Virus genome (UHGV): UHGV-1351569
Direction: 5' to 3' (one strand)
Source of the DNA: a virus
Length of the DNA stretch: 64,000 bases
Of this stretch, positions 6,004 through 54,602 are shown piece after piece. The notes under the pieces are model-generated. The model saw only the letters and a list, made by a program, of their open reading frames with translations, searched no databases and was not told the origin of the DNA. Made by a program: the position numbers and the translations under genes. Every line of letters starts with the position of its first letter. Positions within the stretch are counted from its first letter, which is position 1.

Positions 6004-6659
6004 GCTATTCTCTCAAAATAATAAAATACCGTAGGTTGTGTGTGACTATCTAGCGTAACAGTTTGCGCACCTAATAATTGCCAAGTTCCGTATCCAGGTT
6101 TAGAAGGAGAAATTATTTCTTGTTTGAAAGTAATTCCTTTATCAGAGTATTGTTCTAAGATATGTTCCTGGTTATCTAAATACTTAACTTGTATTTTATT
6201 TCCTATTGTAGGATGGTCTTCAAATGAATCAATTGCAATAAATTTTGCAACCATTTCCTGTAGAGCTGTTCTAACGGCACTGGTAAATTCGATTGAAGTC
6301 ATTCCGTTAGTAGCTTTAACTGGAATACCAAACATGTTAACAATAACTGGGTCACCTGGTTTGGCTGAAGTATCAGTAACAGTTCCTTCAAATGACCAAT
6401 AGTCTGTTTGCTGCACGCCAGTAGGAGATACGCCGCTTATATTAACTAATACAGCTCCAACTTGTTGCTCTGCCATATTTCTAACATCATTGATAGCAGA
6501 TTCTACATTTGGGTCATAAAAACCTTTTGCTATTTGTGAAATTGTTACAGCGCCTACTGGCTGATTATTCATAACCGAAATATCATTTTTCTTAGTTCTA
6601 AAACCAAGAAAATCTGCTAAGCGGGAAATAACTCCCGCTTTATTATTAAGTAAACTCAT
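6000..6659 (-). CDS. 11: baseplate wedge / short-tail-fiber attachment protein gp11
   Basis: start taken at internal Met ([21 protein letters not shown]...) giving 219 aa; its ATG overlaps the gene 10 stop (TAATG). Confidence 0.85.
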
Positions 6660-21326: not shown

Positions 21327-22023
<697 letters not shown>

Positions 22024-22035
22024 TTTCACAAAGTT

Positions 22036-22065
22036 GTTTACATGCTGATGAGGTAGTGATACTAT
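22036..22065 (+). promoter_or_regulatory. early promoter (-35 GTTTAC, -10 GATACTAT inside a GATGAG...CTCATC stem-loop)
   Basis: T4 early-promoter-like -35/-10 pair preceded by TAATTTCACAAAGTT. Confidence 0.6.
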
Positions 22066-22095
22066 TATCTCATCAAAATTAATTAGGAAAATAAA

Positions 22096-22353
22096 ATGAA
22101 AACTTTCAAAGAGTTTGCTACAAAAACTACTATTACTGAATCTTCTCATGGTATGGAAGTAAAGCTTGGAATGGCTTTAGCTGAAGCTGAGCGTCTTTTC
22201 TCTCGTATTAAAGAACTTGCTGCTGCAGTCGATCCTTCATCTTTTAAAGGAGACCAAACGAAAGTTAAAGCACTTTTAGCATTATGCTCCGATGCAGGAG
22301 AAATTGCTAAAAACGGTTCTAAGATGAAGAAACGATTAGAAGATTTAAAATAA
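22096..22353 (+). CDS. small protein with capsid-targeting-like N-terminus (internal-protein-like)
   Basis: 85 aa, starts MKTFKEFATK..., strong RBS AGGAAA; occupies the position of ipI. Confidence 0.55.
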   Translation: MKTFKEFATKTTITESSHGMEVKLGMALAEAERLFSRIKELAAAVDPSSFKGDQTKVKALLALCSDAGEIAKNGSKMKKRLEDLK

Positions 22354-22366
22354 TTTCACAAAGTTA

Positions 22367-22395
22367 TTTACACATGGTTTTAGTAGTGATACTAT
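22367..22395 (+). promoter_or_regulatory. early promoter (repeat of the 22036 module)
   Basis: TAATTTCACAAAGTTATTTACA ... GTGATACTAT within a GGTA...TACC inverted repeat. Confidence 0.6.
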
Positions 22396-22429
22396 TACCC
22401 TATCAAAACAAAACCAAATGGAAATCAAA

Positions 22430-22738
22430 ATGAAAACTTACCAAGAATTTATCAATGAAGCAGCTGCGCCAAAGACATTTGTTATTAATACTCAAGCGAG
22501 TCTTGATGACGAGTACGCAGAGGCAATTTTGAAGTCACTTGCTAAGAACGGTGTTGAAGTGTCTGCATCGGACTTTAAGAAAGGGGCTTCCGAGATGTTT
22601 ATTTCTATAACTAAAGGATCTAAAGCTAAAATTAAATCATCATTCGGAGTTGCTCGTGCCGATCAAATCGACAACCATGACTTTAAACAAACTGGTGCTA
22701 AACGACAGAACACAATTGCATCACGTGGAATAAAATAG
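22430..22738 (+). CDS. internal-protein-like protein with capsid targeting sequence
   Basis: begins MKTYQEFINEA (consensus capsid-targeting sequence of T4 internal proteins, prohead protease site after ...xE). Confidence 0.6.
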   Translation: MKTYQEFINEAAAPKTFVINTQASLDDEYAEAILKSLAKNGVEVSASDFKKGASEMFISITKGSKAKIKSSFGVARADQIDNHDFKQTGAKRQNTIASRGIK

Positions 22739-22750
22739 TTTTATAAAATT

Positions 22751-22780
22751 GTTTACTTTTAGATGGGGTAGTGATACTAT
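22751..22780 (+). promoter_or_regulatory. early promoter (third copy of the module)
   Basis: GTTTAC ... GTGATACTAT inside a GGGTA...TACCC inverted repeat. Confidence 0.6.
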
Positions 22781-22808
22781 TACCCTATCAACTACTGAGG
22801 AGAATAAA

Positions 22809-22994
22809 ATGAAACGTTGTGAATTAATTCGAAATGTTGCTATTGCAATTTCTGCTTCTGCTTTTAGTTTTTCAATGTTTGTTGGATTTATATGCGGATT
22901 ATTAACTACAGCAGAAAACGTTTTTTCACTTGTAGTAGCATTTTTAATTGGTTTAATTGCTATCGTTATGGATAAAATTTCTAAAGGTGAATAG
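22809..22994 (+). CDS. small predicted membrane protein
   Basis: 61 aa, RBS GAGGAG, hydrophobic segments. Confidence 0.5.
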   Translation: MKRCELIRNVAIAISASAFSFSMFVGFICGLLTTAENVFSLVVAFLIGLIAIVMDKISKGE

Positions 22995-22995
22995 A

Positions 22996-23379
22996 ATGTA
23001 TAAAGTGTACGCGGATTATCAGGCTAATCCATCTAAAAAGCCAAATTGTCAAATAGGATGGGCTCATGATACTTTGCTTGAAGCAGTAGATGCTGCTCAA
23101 AAATTGGGATATAAATATGTAGAGATTGTTCAACTTCCATCAGGAACAGTTATTACTCTTGAAGAGTTCAATAATATTAAACCAAACTTTTTACTTTTTG
23201 CAGGTGATAATTATTATCCTCGCGGTGGATATGCTGATTTAATCGCGAAAGCCGCTACCGAAGATGAACTCCGTGATATTATCAAAGAAAATGAAAACAA
23301 ACCGATGTATGGTTCTAATCGCTTTGATTGGTGGCAAATCGTAAATGCCCATACTCATACTATTGTTGATGAAGGTTAA
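22996..23379 (+). CDS. hypothetical protein
   Basis: 127 aa from RBS-supported ATG. Confidence 0.5.
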   Translation: MYKVYADYQANPSKKPNCQIGWAHDTLLEAVDAAQKLGYKYVEIVQLPSGTVITLEEFNNIKPNFLLFAGDNYYPRGGYADLIAKAATEDELRDIIKENENKPMYGSNRFDWWQIVNAHTHTIVDEG

Positions 23380-23381
23380 TA

Positions 23382-23672
23382 ATGATTCTTTATGCGAAAG
23401 TATCATCCATTGAAAATGGATATAAATATGATCAAGAAGCAGCTAAAGCCTTGATTGATGATTATGGCATTTTAACATGTTTTGAAGTTGAAAAGGTTTA
23501 CATTGACCGTTCATCTTCTCAAGTTAAATTAGTGAAGGAAGACCGTAAATTTAACACAGTTAACTTTGATTTCTTTATTGAAACGGAAAAAGGTCCTCTT
23601 GAATATGATATTTTCAAGAATCCTTTGGGTCTTGAATGTATTCAGAAAACGTATATTAATGCAGCGTGGTGA
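23382..23672 (+). CDS. hypothetical protein
   Basis: 96-aa ORF. Confidence 0.5.
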   Translation: MILYAKVSSIENGYKYDQEAAKALIDDYGILTCFEVEKVYIDRSSSQVKLVKEDRKFNTVNFDFFIETEKGPLEYDIFKNPLGLECIQKTYINAAW

Positions 23673-23674
23673 AA

Positions 23675-24190
23675 ATGAATATTTGTTTAGGTACTACAAT
23701 TCCGCAAGGTTATGTGATTGATGTAACTACATGGGAAAATGATGGTGACAACTATAAAACCAAAACACTGTTTGGCGTAGAAGAGCATGAAATCTTACAA
23801 TTCCAATATCTTTTAAAGAAGTTTAAAAGCCGACATTCTAGTACTAAAATTGAGCACTATTGTGGTAATGCTTCGTTCAGTGAGCAATCGCTTTTTATCT
23901 ATGAATACTTGGTTGAAGGACTGTTCTCAGACCAGCTTTGTTCAGAATTCATTAAAAAGGTCTTTGATATAGAAGTTGACCTTGGTAATAAATCCGAAGA
24001 AGACGAAGAACGTGTATTTGACTTATTCTTTGCGAACGGTAATAAAGTGCTTGAAGGACTTATTAATATTTTAGGCAGTGCTTCTGAATATTATGATTAT
24101 GATTTTCTGCGTGTAGTTGAGAGTGTTAAATACTCTTATATAGAAAAAGAAATTGTTTTGCCGACCGTTAAAATGTTTAATTTGCTTTAA
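23675..24190 (+). CDS. hypothetical protein
   Basis: 171 aa from first ATG (ORF track begins at GTG 23666). Confidence 0.5.
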   Translation: MNICLGTTIPQGYVIDVTTWENDGDNYKTKTLFGVEEHEILQFQYLLKKFKSRHSSTKIEHYCGNASFSEQSLFIYEYLVEGLFSDQLCSEFIKKVFDIEVDLGNKSEEDEERVFDLFFANGNKVLEGLINILGSASEYYDYDFLRVVESVKYSYIEKEIVLPTVKMFNLL

Positions 24191-24276
24191 GAATTATTTG
24201 TTATTATTAACTCATACCGCACTGATTAATACCCTCTATCATCAAGGGTTCTTATTTGAGAGCCTTTGTTAATAAT

Positions 24277-24349
24277 TGGGAATTAGCCAAGTTGGTAAGG
24301 CACTGGATTTTGATTCCAGGATGCAAAGGTTCGAGTCCTTTATTCCCAG
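24277..24349 (+). tRNA. tRNA-Gln (anticodon UUG), CCA not encoded
   Basis: cloverleaf read by hand: acceptor TGGGAAT/ATTCCCA, anticodon stem CTGGA/TCCAG, loop TTTTGAT. Confidence 0.8.
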
Positions 24350-24350
24350 C

Positions 24351-24516: not shown

Positions 24517-24526
24517 ATTTAATTTA

Positions 24527-24603
24527 CTCCGTGTAGCTCAGTTTGGTAGAGCACCTCACTTGTAATGAGGATGTCGGCGGTTCGATTCCGTCAATCAGCA
24601 CCA
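24527..24603 (+). tRNA. tRNA-like gene with Thr anticodon UGU but non-complementary acceptor stem (probable hybrid / pseudo-tRNA)
   Basis: D, anticodon and T arms fold normally; 5' acceptor strand CTCCGTG cannot pair with 3' strand AATCAGC (4 of 7 mismatches). Confidence 0.55.
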
Positions 24604-24604
24604 A

Positions 24605-24717: not shown

Positions 24718-25383
24718 ATGTTCTATTACACTTATAAAATAACAAATAAAATTAATAATAAAATTTATATTGGTGTGCATTCTACCGAAAATTTAGATGA
24801 TGGATATATGGGTTCTGGTAAATTATTAAAAAGAGCCCAAGATAAATATGGTATAGAAAATTTTTCTAAAGAAATATTAGAGTATTTTGATGATAAAGAA
24901 TCTATGCTTGAAGCCGAGAAAAATATTGTTACAGAAGAGTTTTTAAATAGACCAGATGTGTATAATTTAAAACTTGGCGGTGAAGGTGGATGGGACCATA
25001 TAAATATTCCTGGGATGCTAAACCAGAAGAAAGACGCTAGTTTAAAAGGAGCTAAATCGTTTAAGTCACGTTTTAAAAATGATATTTTACTTCAAGAAAA
25101 ATATCGTAAACATGGTTCAAATGTATTTAAACAGCTTTGGGATAATCCTAAGTATAGAGAGAAATTTTTAAATACTAAATCTTTCTTGGGTAAGACCCAT
25201 ACTCTTGAAACTATTAATAAAATGAAAGAATCTCACGCCAGAAATAAACACCAACAGGGCGAAAAGAATTCCCAATTTGGTATGATGTGGATTCATTCAT
25301 TAGATGAAAAAGTTTCTAAACGTATTAAGAAAACTGACCCAATTCCAGAAGGATGGTTTAAAGGTCGAAAAATGAAATTTTAA
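24718..25383 (+). CDS. segB: GIY-YIG homing endonuclease SegB
   Basis: 221 aa; N-terminal YKITNKINNKIYIGVHS...GYMGSG GIY-YIG motif; located inside the tRNA cluster as T4 segB. Confidence 0.85.
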   Translation: MFYYTYKITNKINNKIYIGVHSTENLDDGYMGSGKLLKRAQDKYGIENFSKEILEYFDDKESMLEAEKNIVTEEFLNRPDVYNLKLGGEGGWDHINIPGMLNQKKDASLKGAKSFKSRFKNDILLQEKYRKHGSNVFKQLWDNPKYREKFLNTKSFLGKTHTLETINKMKESHARNKHQQGEKNSQFGMMWIHSLDEKVSKRIKKTDPIPEGWFKGRKMKF

Positions 25384-25809: not shown

Positions 25810-25817
25810 TATAAATA
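25810..25817 (+). promoter_or_regulatory. late promoter TATAAATA
   Basis: TATAAATA about 40 nt upstream of the 25858 ORF. Confidence 0.5.
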
Positions 25818-25857
25818 TAGTAGTATATTAAATCCACGAATTAAAACAGGAAATAAG

Positions 25858-26331
25858 ATGAAATCATATGCTCAATTTTTAAATGAAGCGGTGATAAATG
25901 AAGCATCTAGCACTGAAATTCAAGCTGTCGCGAAAGCAGCCATTGCAGCGGGTAAATATTCCTATAAAGATGCTTCTGACGAATCACGATTCCAATTTGC
26001 TCGTGATATGAAAGCCGAAGGATTTACAGGGAATGCAGTTAGTATGGCTTGGAAAAGTTTAGTTGCTACTGGAGCTGCTTTTGCAAAGGCTTCAGGTAAA
26101 CCTGCTCCTAAAGCAGATCCTAAAGTCACACAAGAGAAAAATATTGTTAAAGGAATTATCTCCAAATATGAAGCTATCCTTAAAGAGCTTTTAGTAATCA
26201 AAACTGAAGGCCAAAAACTGGCTCGTGCTTATAGTTTCAAAGATAACCCACATGCTCACTCTCTTGAGTATGTTGAAGACATCCAAAAAATTATTAAAGA
26301 CCGCATTTGGTCTGCTAAACAAATCAAATAA
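25858..26331 (+). CDS. hypothetical protein with capsid-targeting-like N-terminus MKSYAQFLNEA
   Basis: 157-aa Ala/Lys-rich protein; N-terminus resembles internal-protein targeting sequence; late promoter upstream. Confidence 0.5.
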   Translation: MKSYAQFLNEAVINEASSTEIQAVAKAAIAAGKYSYKDASDESRFQFARDMKAEGFTGNAVSMAWKSLVATGAAFAKASGKPAPKADPKVTQEKNIVKGIISKYEAILKELLVIKTEGQKLARAYSFKDNPHAHSLEYVEDIQKIIKDRIWSAKQIK

Positions 26332-26366: not shown

Positions 26367-26498
26367 GGTATCTAGGCCTTTCCGGGCCTCTCTAGGCATC
26401 ATTTAGTTTATACCCTTTATAATTATTATCCTACCTTTTAATTTCCTCTCCCTGCCCTAGAATTCCCTAAAACTTTTTAAAAAATTTTTCACAAAACT

Positions 26499-26528
26499 GT
26501 TTACATCCCTATTCTTCCATGGTACTAT
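26499..26528 (+). promoter_or_regulatory. early promoter with A/T-rich upstream element
   Basis: TTTTTCACAAAACTGTTTACA ... GGTACTAT. Confidence 0.6.
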
Positions 26529-26835: not shown

Positions 26836-26865
26836 GTTTACACAGGCTCATGATTGAGATATTAT
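26836..26865 (+). promoter_or_regulatory. early promoter overlapping an inverted repeat
   Basis: GTTTAC at 26836, -10 GATATTAT; inverted repeat CAGGCTCAT...ATGAGCCTG spans the spacer and -10. Confidence 0.55.
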
Positions 26866-26890
26866 GAGCCTGTAATTTGAGGAGAACATA

Positions 26891-27289
26891 ATGAATATTG
26901 AAGATAAAGAAATGCGAGAGTTATATAATTCATTAACACCTGAACAACAAAAAGCTGCCAAAGAATTAGAGAAAGCTCTTAGTTTAAGCTTGACAAAAAC
27001 TGATTGGGCCGCCGTGTATGAAGAAAAAATGAGGTCGGAAAATGAAGCTGCCGAGAGAAATGAATGGATTGTGGATACCAAGATTGGAGCTGATGGTTGT
27101 TCTGTTGAGGTGTCAGCTGTAGTTAAAGGTACTCATGGCGAAAAATCATGGGGTTGGCATAATGAGGCAAACAAATATATTGTTCTCTCAACATCAAAAA
27201 CTTATGGTCAAAAGGTTCCTGTATCCAAAGCTATTATTAAGCAAGCTCAATGGGAAGCCAATGAAATCTGTCTCGCAAAAATGAAATAA
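26891..27289 (+). CDS. hypothetical protein
   Basis: 132-aa ORF, RBS GAGGAG. Confidence 0.5.
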   Translation: MNIEDKEMRELYNSLTPEQQKAAKELEKALSLSLTKTDWAAVYEEKMRSENEAAERNEWIVDTKIGADGCSVEVSAVVKGTHGEKSWGWHNEANKYIVLSTSKTYGQKVPVSKAIIKQAQWEANEICLAKMK

Positions 27290-41242: not shown

Positions 41243-41266
41243 ATTTCAAAATTTTTTCACAAAACG

Positions 41267-41296
41267 GTTTACAAGCATAAAGCTTTATGGTACTAT
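41267..41296 (+). promoter_or_regulatory. early promoter with A/T-rich upstream element
   Basis: TTTTTTCACAAAACGGTTTACA ... GGTACTAT. Confidence 0.6.
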
Positions 41297-54499: not shown

Positions 54500-54572
54500 T
54501 CACATTCTGTATATTACCATTCTAAGCTATCGTTCCCTTCTTATCGTTCCCTAAAATAATTTTCACAAAGTT

Positions 54573-54602
54573 GTTTACAAGAAGTTCAAACTGTGGTATT
54601 AT
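54573..54602 (+). promoter_or_regulatory. early promoter with upstream TTTTCACAAAG element
   Basis: GTTTAC ... GGTATTAT. Confidence 0.55.

What the first reader, a model, noticed from the sequence alone, without database searches (positions are those of the whole stretch)
22021..24190. Hypervariable cassette locus between 57B and the tRNA cluster, built from repeated promoter/stem-loop modules
Where T4 carries ipI, this phage has six small ORFs. The first three are each preceded by the same module: upstream stop codon, TAATTTCACAAAGTT(G/A)TTTACA (-35), about 18 bp, GTGATACTAT (-10) held inside a short inverted repeat (GATGAG..CTCATC, GGTA..TACC, GGGTA..TACCC), RBS, ATG. The 3' ends of 57B and of the 22096 ORF are also the same (GATTTAAAATAA, both proteins end DLK), so the 22096 gene sits between roughly 30-bp direct repeats. 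Repeated promoter/stem-loop units of this kind are the proposed vehicle for modular gene exchange in T4-type phages, so the ORFs here are good candidates for recently acquired host-takeover or anti-defence genes.
Basis: partly seen in the sequence, partly recalled or inferred. Interest (0 to 1): 0.65.

Follow-up and report, generated by a model that had tools for sequence, protein, structure and literature searches.

The report
T-even phage internal-protein gene cassette array

Summary
Six ORFs lie between 57B and tRNA-Gln. The first three each follow a repeated unit of about 71 nt (82% and 73% identity): a T4-type early promoter whose -10 sits in a hairpin. Two hairpins are strong. The middle one is a remnant.

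ORF1 and ORF2 are the named internal head proteins Ip5 and Ip7. Each has the capsid-targeting leader and an I-x-E prohead-protease motif. ORFs 3-5 are T4's own trna.4, trna.3 and trna.2. ORF6 is the RB32ORF135c/T2_138 family. So only two genes replace ipI, not six.

Relatives confirm variability:
- 11 Tequatrovirus loci carry 10 different ip arrays.
- Among about 500 close phage records, 57B and trna.4 are near-universal, the Ip5 body is in 252 and the Ip7 body in 91.
- Homology breakpoints fall in the promoter core, the upstream A/T-rich element and the leader codons.
- Hairpin arms covary, and chimeric modules have broken hairpins.

All this matches the IP-locus polymorphism of Repoila et al. 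1994 and the PeSL model of Arbiol 2010 and Comeau 2014, which already describes stem-loops overlapping the -10 box. Novelty: already known. Interest is low.

The parts
21568..22023 (+). Gene 57B = Acb1 (anti-CBASS phosphodiesterase family). It is the conserved left anchor of the locus, and its last 4 codons lie inside module 1.
   Evidence: Pfam PF23474 Acb1, E 2.6e-60. Annotated 57B in T4, T2 and RB32. Present in 561 phage records.
22008..22095 (+). Module 1: A/T-rich upstream element with the 57B stop, -35 TTTACA (22037-22042), -10 TACTAT (22060-22065) preceded by TG, then the ribosome-binding region.
   Evidence: Repeat family D1; promoter scans; the same module precedes ipI in T4, and Ip5, Ip7 or Ip9 in other phages.
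22046..22075 (+). Hairpin 1: 13-bp stem (including G.U pairs) with loop AUAC. The -10 hexamer forms the loop and the 3' side of the apical stem.
   Evidence: -14.8 kcal/mol, z -4.67 on the sense strand; -8.2 on the antisense strand. T4 has the perfect version, GATGAGGTA..TACCTCATC.
22096..22353 (+). ip5: internal head protein Ip5, 85 aa. Leader MKTFKEFATKTTITE (22096-22140) ends in an I-x-E motif.
   Evidence: phrog_3499 'internal head protein', E 1e-49. 99% identical to T2 Ip5. Annotated Ip5 in RB32 and T2. Motif and pI 9.3. AF2 gives a two-helix hairpin, pLDDT 71.
22338..22429 (+). Module 2: the Ip5 3' end (..EDLK stop), -35 TTTACA (22367-22372), -10 TACTAT (22390-22395), degenerate hairpin 22376-22399, and a 5' UTR of a different type from that of T2's ip7.
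   Evidence: 82% identical to module 1. Hairpin -8.0 kcal/mol, z -1.55. The 5' UTR and first 8 codons match an unrelated ip gene in L035 and L004, not T2 or RB32 ip7.
22430..22738 (+). ip7: internal head protein Ip7, 102 aa. Leader MKTYQEFINE (22430-22459) ends in an I-x-E motif.
   Evidence: phrog_2667 'internal head protein', E 2e-42. 94% identical to proteins named Ip7. Shares only the 7-residue leader with Ip5. AF2 gives a ferredoxin-like model, pLDDT 65, with no significant PDB match.
22723..22808 (+). Module 3: the Ip7 3' end, -35 TTTACT (22752-22757), -10 TACTAT (22775-22780), hairpin 22762-22789, and GAGGAG ribosome-binding site.
   Evidence: 73% identical to module 1. Hairpin -16.1 kcal/mol, z -4.58; antisense -7.6. 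The orthologous trna.4 promoters of relatives keep the hairpin with different arm sequences.
22809..22994 (+). trna.4 homologue: 61-aa hydrophobic protein. It is the conserved right anchor of the ip array.
   Evidence: phrog_1692. Annotated trna.4 in T4, T2 and RB32. It is the first ORF without the leader in 36 of 40 relatives. 513 phage records.
22996..23379 (+). trna.3 homologue, 127 aa, no promoter of its own. Absent from T2.
   Evidence: phrog_1411.
23382..23672 (+). trna.2 homologue, 96 aa.
   Evidence: phrog_2023.
23675..24190 (+). 171-aa ORF of the RB32ORF135c / T2_138 family. Absent from T4.
   Evidence: phrog_2290, E 1.6e-67. No Pfam or PDB sequence match.
24277..24350 (+). tRNA-Gln, the first gene of the tRNA cluster and the right boundary of the interval.
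   Evidence: ARAGORN; Rfam tRNA, 67.4 bits.

Best explanation
This is the ipI-type internal-protein (IP) locus of a Tequatrovirus. It lies between 57B (Acb1) and trna.4.

Organisation. Each ip gene is a self-contained cassette with five parts: an A/T-rich upstream element that holds the stop codon of the previous gene, a strong T4-type early promoter, a hairpin that encloses the -10, a ribosome-binding site, and about 10-15 codons of capsid-targeting leader ending in I-x-E. The cargo that follows is unrelated from one cassette to the next. This phage carries ip5 and ip7. A third copy of the promoter/hairpin unit drives trna.4 and, apparently, the three promoterless ORFs behind it.

Shuffling (inferred from comparison of relatives). 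The short patches shared by all cassettes are the upstream element, the 13-17-nt -10 core and the leader codons. The phage's own homologous recombination system exchanges, deletes and inserts cargo genes at these patches during mixed infection.

Products (inferred from family features). Ip5 and Ip7 are packaged into the prohead through the leader, cut by the prohead protease after the I-x-E glutamate, and injected with the DNA. By analogy with Ip1, Ip2 and Ip3, their most likely role is to block host nucleases that attack glucosyl-hydroxymethylcytosine DNA.

Hairpin (inferred). It forms only in transcripts that read through from upstream, because the predicted start lies in its 3' arm. It most likely attenuates or insulates such transcripts, or stabilises their 3' ends, as shown experimentally for a PeSL stem-loop of phage RB49/phi1.
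For: Identity of the genes:
- Pfam and PHROG hits.
- Annotated T4, T2 and RB32 loci.
- Named homologues.
- Leader and I-x-E motifs, basic pI.
- Ip5 and Ip7 share only the leader.

Promoter units:
-.

Hairpin:
- z about -4.6 for modules 1 and 3.
- In 48 distinct modules from relatives, 8 of 12 pairs change on both sides; covariation score 0.246 against 0.194 in shuffles (0 of 500 reach it); 69% of cells are paired against 29-61% when the partner is slid.
- Distinct arm pairs occur: GATGAGGTA/TACCTCATC, GATAGGGTA/TACCCTATC, AGGGCTAT/ATAGCCCT, AGGGTTAT/ATAACCCT, GGTAGGACTA/TAGTCCTACC.

Variability:
- The interval is 950-3496 nt with 3-9 ORFs in 40 relatives.
- There are 10 different ip arrays in 11 Tequatrovirus loci.
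- Record counts are 561 (57B), 513 (trna.4), 252 (Ip5 body) and 91 (Ip7 body).

Recombination inside the units:
- Homology blocks end at window positions 22116, 22338, 22383, 22452-22466, 22731-22746 and 22814.
- 5' and 3' module halves occur in the combinations A-a, B-a, B-b, B-c, C-b and C'-a. The mismatched combinations have weak hairpins, -3 to -8 against -12 to -18 kcal/mol.
- The Ip7 body is found behind four different module types.
- The window's ip7 carries the 5' UTR and first 8 codons of another ip gene.

Literature:
- PMC2839356, PMC4122927, PMC12373910.
Against: - Nothing here shows transcription, packaging, cleavage or injection.
[quoted passage not shown] The paper text read here does not say which ten, so an anti-GmrSD role for Ip5 or Ip7 is only an analogy.
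- The hairpins lack a following T-run and were not picked up by the terminator scan, so strong intrinsic termination is doubtful.
- Across relatives, the basal arms fold about equally well on either strand (17 against 13). An RNA-level role is therefore not proven, even though the window's own hairpins are much better on the sense strand.
- Recombinant modules with broken hairpins persist, so the hairpin is dispensable at least in the short term.
- Gene gains and losses on the tRNA side (trna.3, ORF6) happen at gene junctions without any promoter unit.
- Much of the 31-nt repeat is a generic promoter element. Part of the similarity between modules is therefore functional constraint rather than shared descent.
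Confidence: 0.85

Rival explanations
1. The three units look alike only because all strong early promoters of this phage must look alike. On this view they are not recombination vehicles, and locus variability has other causes.
For: The upstream element TTTCACAAA-N4-TTTACA recurs at unrelated early promoters (26487, 41255, 54561). -35, -10 and TG motifs are shared by about 14 sites in the window. Some relatives carry ip genes with no promoter at all, joined to 57B by an ATGA stop/start overlap.
Against: The three units are 70-82% alike, against 48% on average with other early promoters. Homology breakpoints in relatives fall inside them. 5' and 3' halves occur in all combinations, which needs crossovers within the 13-17-nt core.
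Confidence: 0.1
2. Variation at this locus is driven mainly by the neighbouring SegB homing endonuclease. SegB cuts in the tRNA cluster would be followed by co-conversion of flanking DNA, rather than recombination at the promoter units.
For: A GIY-YIG ORF of segB type lies at 24718-25383 inside the tRNA cluster. In T4 x T2L crosses, SegB excludes about 1.25 kb of the T2L tRNA region, including the ORFs that paper calls trna.1 and trna.2 (PMC2330249). The tRNA complement and the ORFs on the tRNA side differ among relatives.
Against: The breakpoints that define the ip array lie 1.9-2.7 kb upstream of segB and coincide with promoter and leader patches. Ip arrays also vary among phages that share the same tRNA-side genes. 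Co-conversion could move blocks but does not explain junctions inside the -10 core.
Confidence: 0.15
3. The hairpin acts at the DNA level. An extruded or single-stranded hairpin would be cut by phage structure-specific nucleases and would stimulate local recombination. It would not be an RNA attenuator or stabiliser.
For: Across relatives, the basal arms pair equally well on both strands. Arbiol et al. mapped one mini-circle crossover in the loop of a PeSL stem-loop and speculated about a DNA-binding recombination factor (PMC2839356). Crossovers inferred here lie between the two arms.
Against: The window's hairpins contain G.T pairs that favour sense-strand RNA: -14.8 and -16.1 against -8.2 and -7.6 kcal/mol. 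In L027, a module of type B-a carries an A-to-G change that restores pairing through a G.U pair. The crossovers also lie in the longest stretch of exact identity, which by itself explains their position.
Confidence: 0.25
4. Ip5 and Ip7 are tandem paralogues made by local duplication and divergence, not independently acquired cassettes.
For: They are adjacent, of similar size and basic pI, and share a leader and promoter.
Against: Beyond the first 7 residues there is no detectable similarity. The predicted folds differ: a two-helix hairpin against a mixed alpha/beta fold. Each occurs without the other in relatives.
Confidence: 0.05

Closest known systems
IP-locus polymorphism of T-even phages (Repoila, Tetart, Bouet and Krisch 1994, EMBO J 13:4181). 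The paper itself is not held; it is known here through PMC2839356, PMC4122927 and PMC12373910.
   Same: Same genomic position (57B to the tRNA genes). Same named genes (ip5 and ip7, as in T2 and RB32). Same conserved leader. Same promoter-bearing repeats between genes; the RB32 annotation notes that Ip9 and Ip7 are 'flanked by 43 bp direct repeat'.
   Different: Nothing in kind. The exact combination here (ip5-ip7-trna.4-trna.3-trna.2-ORF6, with a different 5' UTR and leader on ip7) gave no collinear one-piece match among the 40 best of 852 matching phage records.
PeSL (promoter-early stem-loop) cassettes of RB49/phi1, PST/T4 and nt-1/KVP40 (Arbiol 2010, PMC2839356; Comeau 2014, PMC4122927).
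   Same: Upstream stop codon in an A/T-rich stretch, an early promoter with 17-nt spacer, a stem-loop overlapping the -10 box with G-T pairs, a Shine-Dalgarno sequence and ATG. Copies flank variable genes. Crossovers lie within the unit.
   Different: The authors call the T-even IP-locus elements analogues, not homologues, of the RB49 PeSLs. [quoted passage not shown] Here the repeat also runs into the coding leader. Terminator activity and mini-circles were shown only for RB49/phi1.
T4 Ip1, Ip2 and Ip3, injected inhibitors of GmrSD type IV restriction enzymes (Bair 2007; Silas et al. 2025, PMC12373910).
   Same: Small basic proteins with the same N-terminal leader and protease motif, encoded at the same locus (Ip1).
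   Different: No sequence similarity beyond the leader. No target is known for Ip5 or Ip7.
Lambdoid 'morons' (Hendrix 2000, as discussed in PMC2839356).
   Same: Single accessory genes that bring their own promoter and stem-loop.
   Different: Morons are not bounded by conserved linker sequences and are thought to insert by illegitimate recombination. Here conserved linkers are the exchange sites.

Membership tests
T-even internal head protein (Ip) genes | N-terminal capsid-targeting leader of MKTYQEFI.E type | tested here: met
   Ip5 begins MKTFKEFATKTTITE and Ip7 begins MKTYQEFINE. The leader is shared with T4 IpI and with 14 and 5 homologue clusters.
T-even internal head protein (Ip) genes | Prohead-protease cleavage motif (L/I)-x-E at the end of the leader | tested here: met
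   ITE at residues 13-15 of Ip5 and INE at residues 8-10 of Ip7. This shows the motif only; cleavage was not shown.
T-even internal head protein (Ip) genes | Sequence homology to named Ip proteins | tested here: met
   phrog_3499 and phrog_2667, both 'internal head protein'. 99% identity to T2 Ip5 and 94% to proteins named Ip7.
T-even internal head protein (Ip) genes | Location in one of the two IP loci (next to 57B) | tested here: met
T-even internal head protein (Ip) genes | Packaged in the capsid and injected with the DNA | not testable with these tools
   Needs virion proteomics or injection assays.
PeSL-type promoter/stem-loop cassette | Stop codon of the upstream gene within an A/T-rich stretch just upstream of -35 | tested here: met
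   Stops at 22021, 22351 and 22736 lie 13-14 nt upstream of the -35 hexamers.
PeSL-type promoter/stem-loop cassette | Early promoter, PST/T4 type: TTTACW, 17 nt, TAYWAT | tested here: met
   All three modules match. This is a consensus match only, and activity was not tested.
PeSL-type promoter/stem-loop cassette | Stem-loop within or overlapping the promoter | tested here: met
   Modules 1 and 3 have z -4.7 and -4.6; module 2 is a remnant. Covariation in relatives. The position 'overlapping the -10 box' is one of the commonest PeSL classes (PMC2839356).
PeSL-type promoter/stem-loop cassette | Copies flank genes that differ between close relatives, with breakpoints inside the copies | tested here: met
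PeSL-type promoter/stem-loop cassette | Stem-loop attenuates or terminates read-through transcription | not testable with these tools
   No T-run follows the stems, and the terminator scan found nothing in 22000-24200. A reporter assay is needed.
PeSL-type promoter/stem-loop cassette | Excision as mini-circles by recombination between neighbouring copies | not testable with these tools
   Needs inverse PCR on infected cells.
PeSL-type promoter/stem-loop cassette | Sequence homology to the RB49/phi1 PeSLs | not tested
   The authors state that the T-even IP elements are analogues, not homologues. This report therefore files them as 'works like', not as the same sequence family.
Acb1 (gene 57B) | Match to the Acb1 family profile | tested here: met
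   PF23474, E 2.6e-60, 202.7 bits against a cut-off of 27.

The most novel reading that the evidence does not exclude
The hairpin that encloses the -10 might be a selected RNA element in its own right. It would act as an insulator or 3'-end stabiliser without a T-run, be rebuilt by compensatory changes after each recombination event, and so mark how recently a cassette junction was made. Separately, Ip5 and Ip7 might be injected inhibitors of host defence nucleases that have not yet been identified.
Probability: 0.25. Interest if true: 0.4.

Novelty: already known. Interest (0 to 1): 0.15.

Why it matters
The locus is a clear, textbook-quality example of how T4-type phages swap injected accessory proteins by using their own regulatory sequences as linkers. 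It also sits next to the anti-CBASS gene acb1. Ip5 and Ip7 still have no known target, so they remain reasonable candidates for anti-restriction screens. As a discovery it adds nothing beyond Repoila 1994, Arbiol 2010 and Comeau 2014.

Tried and rejected
- Pfam gave no family for any of the six ORFs.
- PDB sequence searches gave nothing for Ip5, trna.3 or ORF6. For Ip7 they gave only a weak 32-residue match to designed ankyrin repeats (E 2.5e-4). The AF2 model does not support that match: it is ferredoxin-like, pLDDT 65.
- Foldseek of the Ip7 model against the PDB gave no hit at E <= 0.001, only generic ACT/RRM-like folds.
- The Ip5 model is a plain two-helix hairpin, so it was not searched further.
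- Rfam found no family in the modules.
- The strand test on basal hairpin arms across relatives was inconclusive (17 against 13).
- My first gapped pattern search used the wrong spacing and found nothing.
- One literature search on Ip names returned only unrelated papers.
- Repoila 1994 and the Miller 2003 T4 genome review are not held, so their content is cited second-hand.
- One row of alignment A2 (T4) was given in the wrong orientation and was ignored.
- Tandem duplication as the origin of Ip5 and Ip7 was rejected.
Full report
WHAT IS THERE

The window comes from a T4/T2-like phage (Tequatrovirus). The interval 21568-24280 matches 852 phage records. The best match is VEc74, at 95% identity, but in four pieces that span 3.3 kb. 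None of the 40 best records matches collinearly in one piece.

The ORF list and the annotated loci of RB32, T2 and T4 give the following gene order:
- 57B, 21568-22023
- ip5, 22096-22353
- ip7, 22430-22738
- trna.4, 22809-22994
- trna.3, 22996-23379
- trna.2, 23382-23672
- a 171-aa ORF of the RB32ORF135c/T2_138 family, 23675-24190
- tRNA-Gln at 24277

57B is Acb1 (Pfam PF23474, E 2.6e-60). PHROG profiles label ORF1 and ORF2 'internal head protein', and place the other four in families of unknown function. T4 itself has 57B-ipI-trna.4-trna.3-trna.2. Only two genes therefore stand where T4 has ipI, and the sixth ORF is an extra on the tRNA side.

THE REPEATED UNITS

The repeat finder returns three 71-nt copies at 22008, 22338 and 22723, at 82% and 73% identity. 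All three share an exact 13-mer, TAGTGATACTATT. Each copy reads TTTAC(A/T), 17 nt, TACTAT, with a TG just before the -10.

Over the same 71 nt the three copies are 70-82% alike. They share only 48% on average (maximum 63%) with 11 other early-promoter-like sites in the window. The similarity therefore exceeds the promoter consensus.

Part of it, however, is generic. TTTCACAAA-N4-TTTACA occurs five times in the window (expected 0.03), also at 26487, 41255 and 54561. The TTAAAATAA that supplies the shared '..LK stop' of 57B and Ip5 lies in this A/T-rich upstream element.

Between ip genes the repeat continues through the ribosome-binding site into the first codons (family D3).

THE HAIRPIN

Folded as sense RNA, module 1 forms a 13-bp stem (22046-22075, -14.8 kcal/mol, z -4.67). 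Module 3 forms a 12-bp stem (22762-22789, -16.1 kcal/mol, z -4.58). Module 2 keeps a remnant only (-8.0 kcal/mol, z -1.55). The antisense strands of modules 1 and 3 fold much less well, at -8.2 and -7.6 kcal/mol. The -10 hexamer forms the loop and the 3' side of the apical stem. A start about 7 nt downstream would lie in the 3' arm, so only read-through transcripts would carry the whole hairpin. That last step is inference.

In 48 distinct modules taken from 40 related loci, the arms change together. Examples are GATGAGGTA/TACCTCATC, GATAGGGTA/TACCCTATC, AGGGCTAT/ATAGCCCT against AGGGTTAT/ATAACCCT, and GGTAGGACTA/TAGTCCTACC. On a gap-free alignment:
- 8 of 12 pairs show changes on both sides.
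- The covariation score is 0.246 against 0.194 in shuffles (0 of 500 reach it).
- 69% of cells pair, against 29-61% when the partner column is slid.
- A second register with the 5' arm 6 nt further upstream also occurs.

Across relatives the basal arms fold equally well on either strand, so RNA and DNA roles cannot be separated by sequence alone.

One other early promoter in the window, at 26837, has the same design (-20 kcal/mol). Most others do not.

VARIABILITY AND WHERE THE EXCHANGES HAPPEN

In 40 loci that encode a 57B relative, the distance from 57B to the first tRNA is 950-3496 nt and holds 3-9 ORFs. Between 57B and trna.4 there are zero to five ORFs. Most, but not all, of these ORFs begin with the leader. 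They belong to many unrelated clusters.

Eleven Tequatrovirus loci (ten relatives plus the window) show ten different ip arrays. Only T2 shares the window's ip5-ip7 order.

In the phage collection the record counts are:
- 57B: 561 records
- trna.4: 513 records
- Ip5 body: 252 records
- Ip7 body: 91 records

Blocks of homology to the window end at 22116, 22338, 22383, 22452-22466, 22731-22746 and 22814. These positions lie in the upstream element, the -10 core and the end of the leader.

I classified the 5' half (arm types A, B, C, C') and the 3' half (types a, b, c) of each module. The observed combinations are A-a, B-a, B-b, B-c, C-b and C'-a. Matched halves give hairpins of -12 to -18 kcal/mol, and mismatched ones (B-a, C'-a) only -3 to -8 kcal/mol. 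This pattern requires crossovers inside the 13-17-nt core.

The same Ip7 body sits behind four module types. The window's ip7 has the 5' UTR and first 8 codons of a different ip gene (as in L035 and L004), joined to the Ip7 body within GAATTTAT. So even where the gene order equals that of T2, the junction differs.

On the tRNA side, gene gains and losses occur at gene junctions without promoter units. T2 lacks trna.3, and the ends of trna.4 and trna.3 share AAGGT(G/T)AATA.

THE CARGO

Ip5 and Ip7 are small and basic (pI 9.3-9.4). Their leaders end in ITE and INE. Beyond the first seven residues they share nothing with each other. Beyond the leader, Ip5 shares nothing with T4 IpI.

Their families are narrow and confined to T4-like phages: 5 and 14 clusters in a database of 5.8 billion proteins.

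AF2 gives a two-helix hairpin for Ip5 (pLDDT 71) and a ferredoxin-like alpha/beta fold for Ip7 (pLDDT 65). The Ip7 model has no significant PDB match.

Function has to be argued by analogy. Ip1, Ip2 and Ip3 of T4 each inhibit a different GmrSD type IV restriction enzyme. [quoted passage not shown]

COMPARISON WITH WHAT IS KNOWN

Arbiol et al. 2010 (PMC2839356) define PeSLs as an upstream stop codon in an A/T-rich region, a strong early promoter, a stem-loop, a Shine-Dalgarno sequence and ATG. They state that the stem-loop most often lies between -35 and -10 or overlaps the -10 box, and they mark G-T pairs. They also show terminator-like activity for one stem-loop, and mini-circles with crossovers inside the units.

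The same paper says that Repoila et al. [quoted passage not shown] Comeau et al. 2014 (PMC4122927) repeat this and give the PST/T4 promoter consensus TTTACW-N17-TAYWAT, which all three modules here match.

The RB32 record already notes that Ip9 and Ip7 are 'flanked by 43 bp direct repeat'.

The finding is therefore real and carefully observed. My comparison supports the published model with covariation and chimeric modules. It is not new.

VERDICT

- Observation: confirmed.
- Interpretation: partly supported. The gene count relative to T4 is wrong, the Ip identity was missed, 'recently acquired' is not shown, and anti-defence is an analogy only.
- Novelty: already known.
- Interest: 0.15.

Noticed in passing
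window 24517-24604: An 88-nt stretch lies between tRNA-Gly and the CAU-anticodon tRNA. ARAGORN does not call it. Rfam matches only tRNA model positions 8-63 (47 bits). Its 3' part reads like T4 tRNA-Thr. T4 and RB32 carry Pro, Ser and Thr tRNAs here, so this looks like a hybrid or truncated tRNA left by a deletion between tRNA genes.
   Followed up: partly
window 24718-25383: A GIY-YIG ORF of segB type sits inside the tRNA cluster, as in T4 and RB32. In published crosses SegB homing excludes the T2L tRNA region (PMC2330249), so it may add to turnover on the tRNA side of the locus.
   Followed up: partly
window 26837-26882: An early promoter upstream of the ORF at 26891 (at the position of T4 e.7) also has its -10 inside a 13-bp hairpin (-20 kcal/mol, z -6.6). 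Most other early-promoter-like sites in the window have no such hairpin.
   Followed up: partly
window 25810-26331: A further Ip-like ORF (157 aa, begins MKSYAQFLNEAVINE, phrog_2280) lies downstream of the tRNA cluster. It is preceded by a late-promoter motif, TATAAATA, rather than an early-promoter unit, and is followed by a GAAA-tetraloop terminator.
   Followed up: no
loci L005, L010, L026, L028, L030, L036, L037, L039, around position 6453: In more distant relatives the first ip gene has no promoter unit. Its ATG overlaps the 57B stop (..AAATGA..), which suggests translational coupling of the ip gene to acb1.
   Followed up: no
window 22980-22998 and 23365-23384; L003 (T2) 2900-2920: The ends of trna.4 and trna.3 share AAGGT(G/T)AATA. 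T2, which lacks trna.3, has exactly one copy at the junction. This is consistent with deletion by recombination at this short repeat, without any promoter unit.
   Followed up: partly
window 22526-22624 (Ip7 residues 33-65): There is a weak sequence match to single repeats of designed ankyrin proteins (best E 2.5e-4). The AF2 model (ferredoxin-like, pLDDT 65) does not support it, so it is probably compositional.
   Followed up: yes
window 23382-23672: T4 Trna.2, the homologue of this ORF, was one of only two T4 proteins enriched in pulldowns of the DRT1 defence reverse transcriptase (PMC13275509). The authors did not follow it up.
   Followed up: no
window 54561-54579, 41255-41273, 26487-26505: The upstream promoter element TTTCACAAA-N4-TTTACA, which flanks ip5, recurs almost identically at distant early promoters. 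These copies offer short homology patches that could support ectopic recombination.
   Followed up: partly
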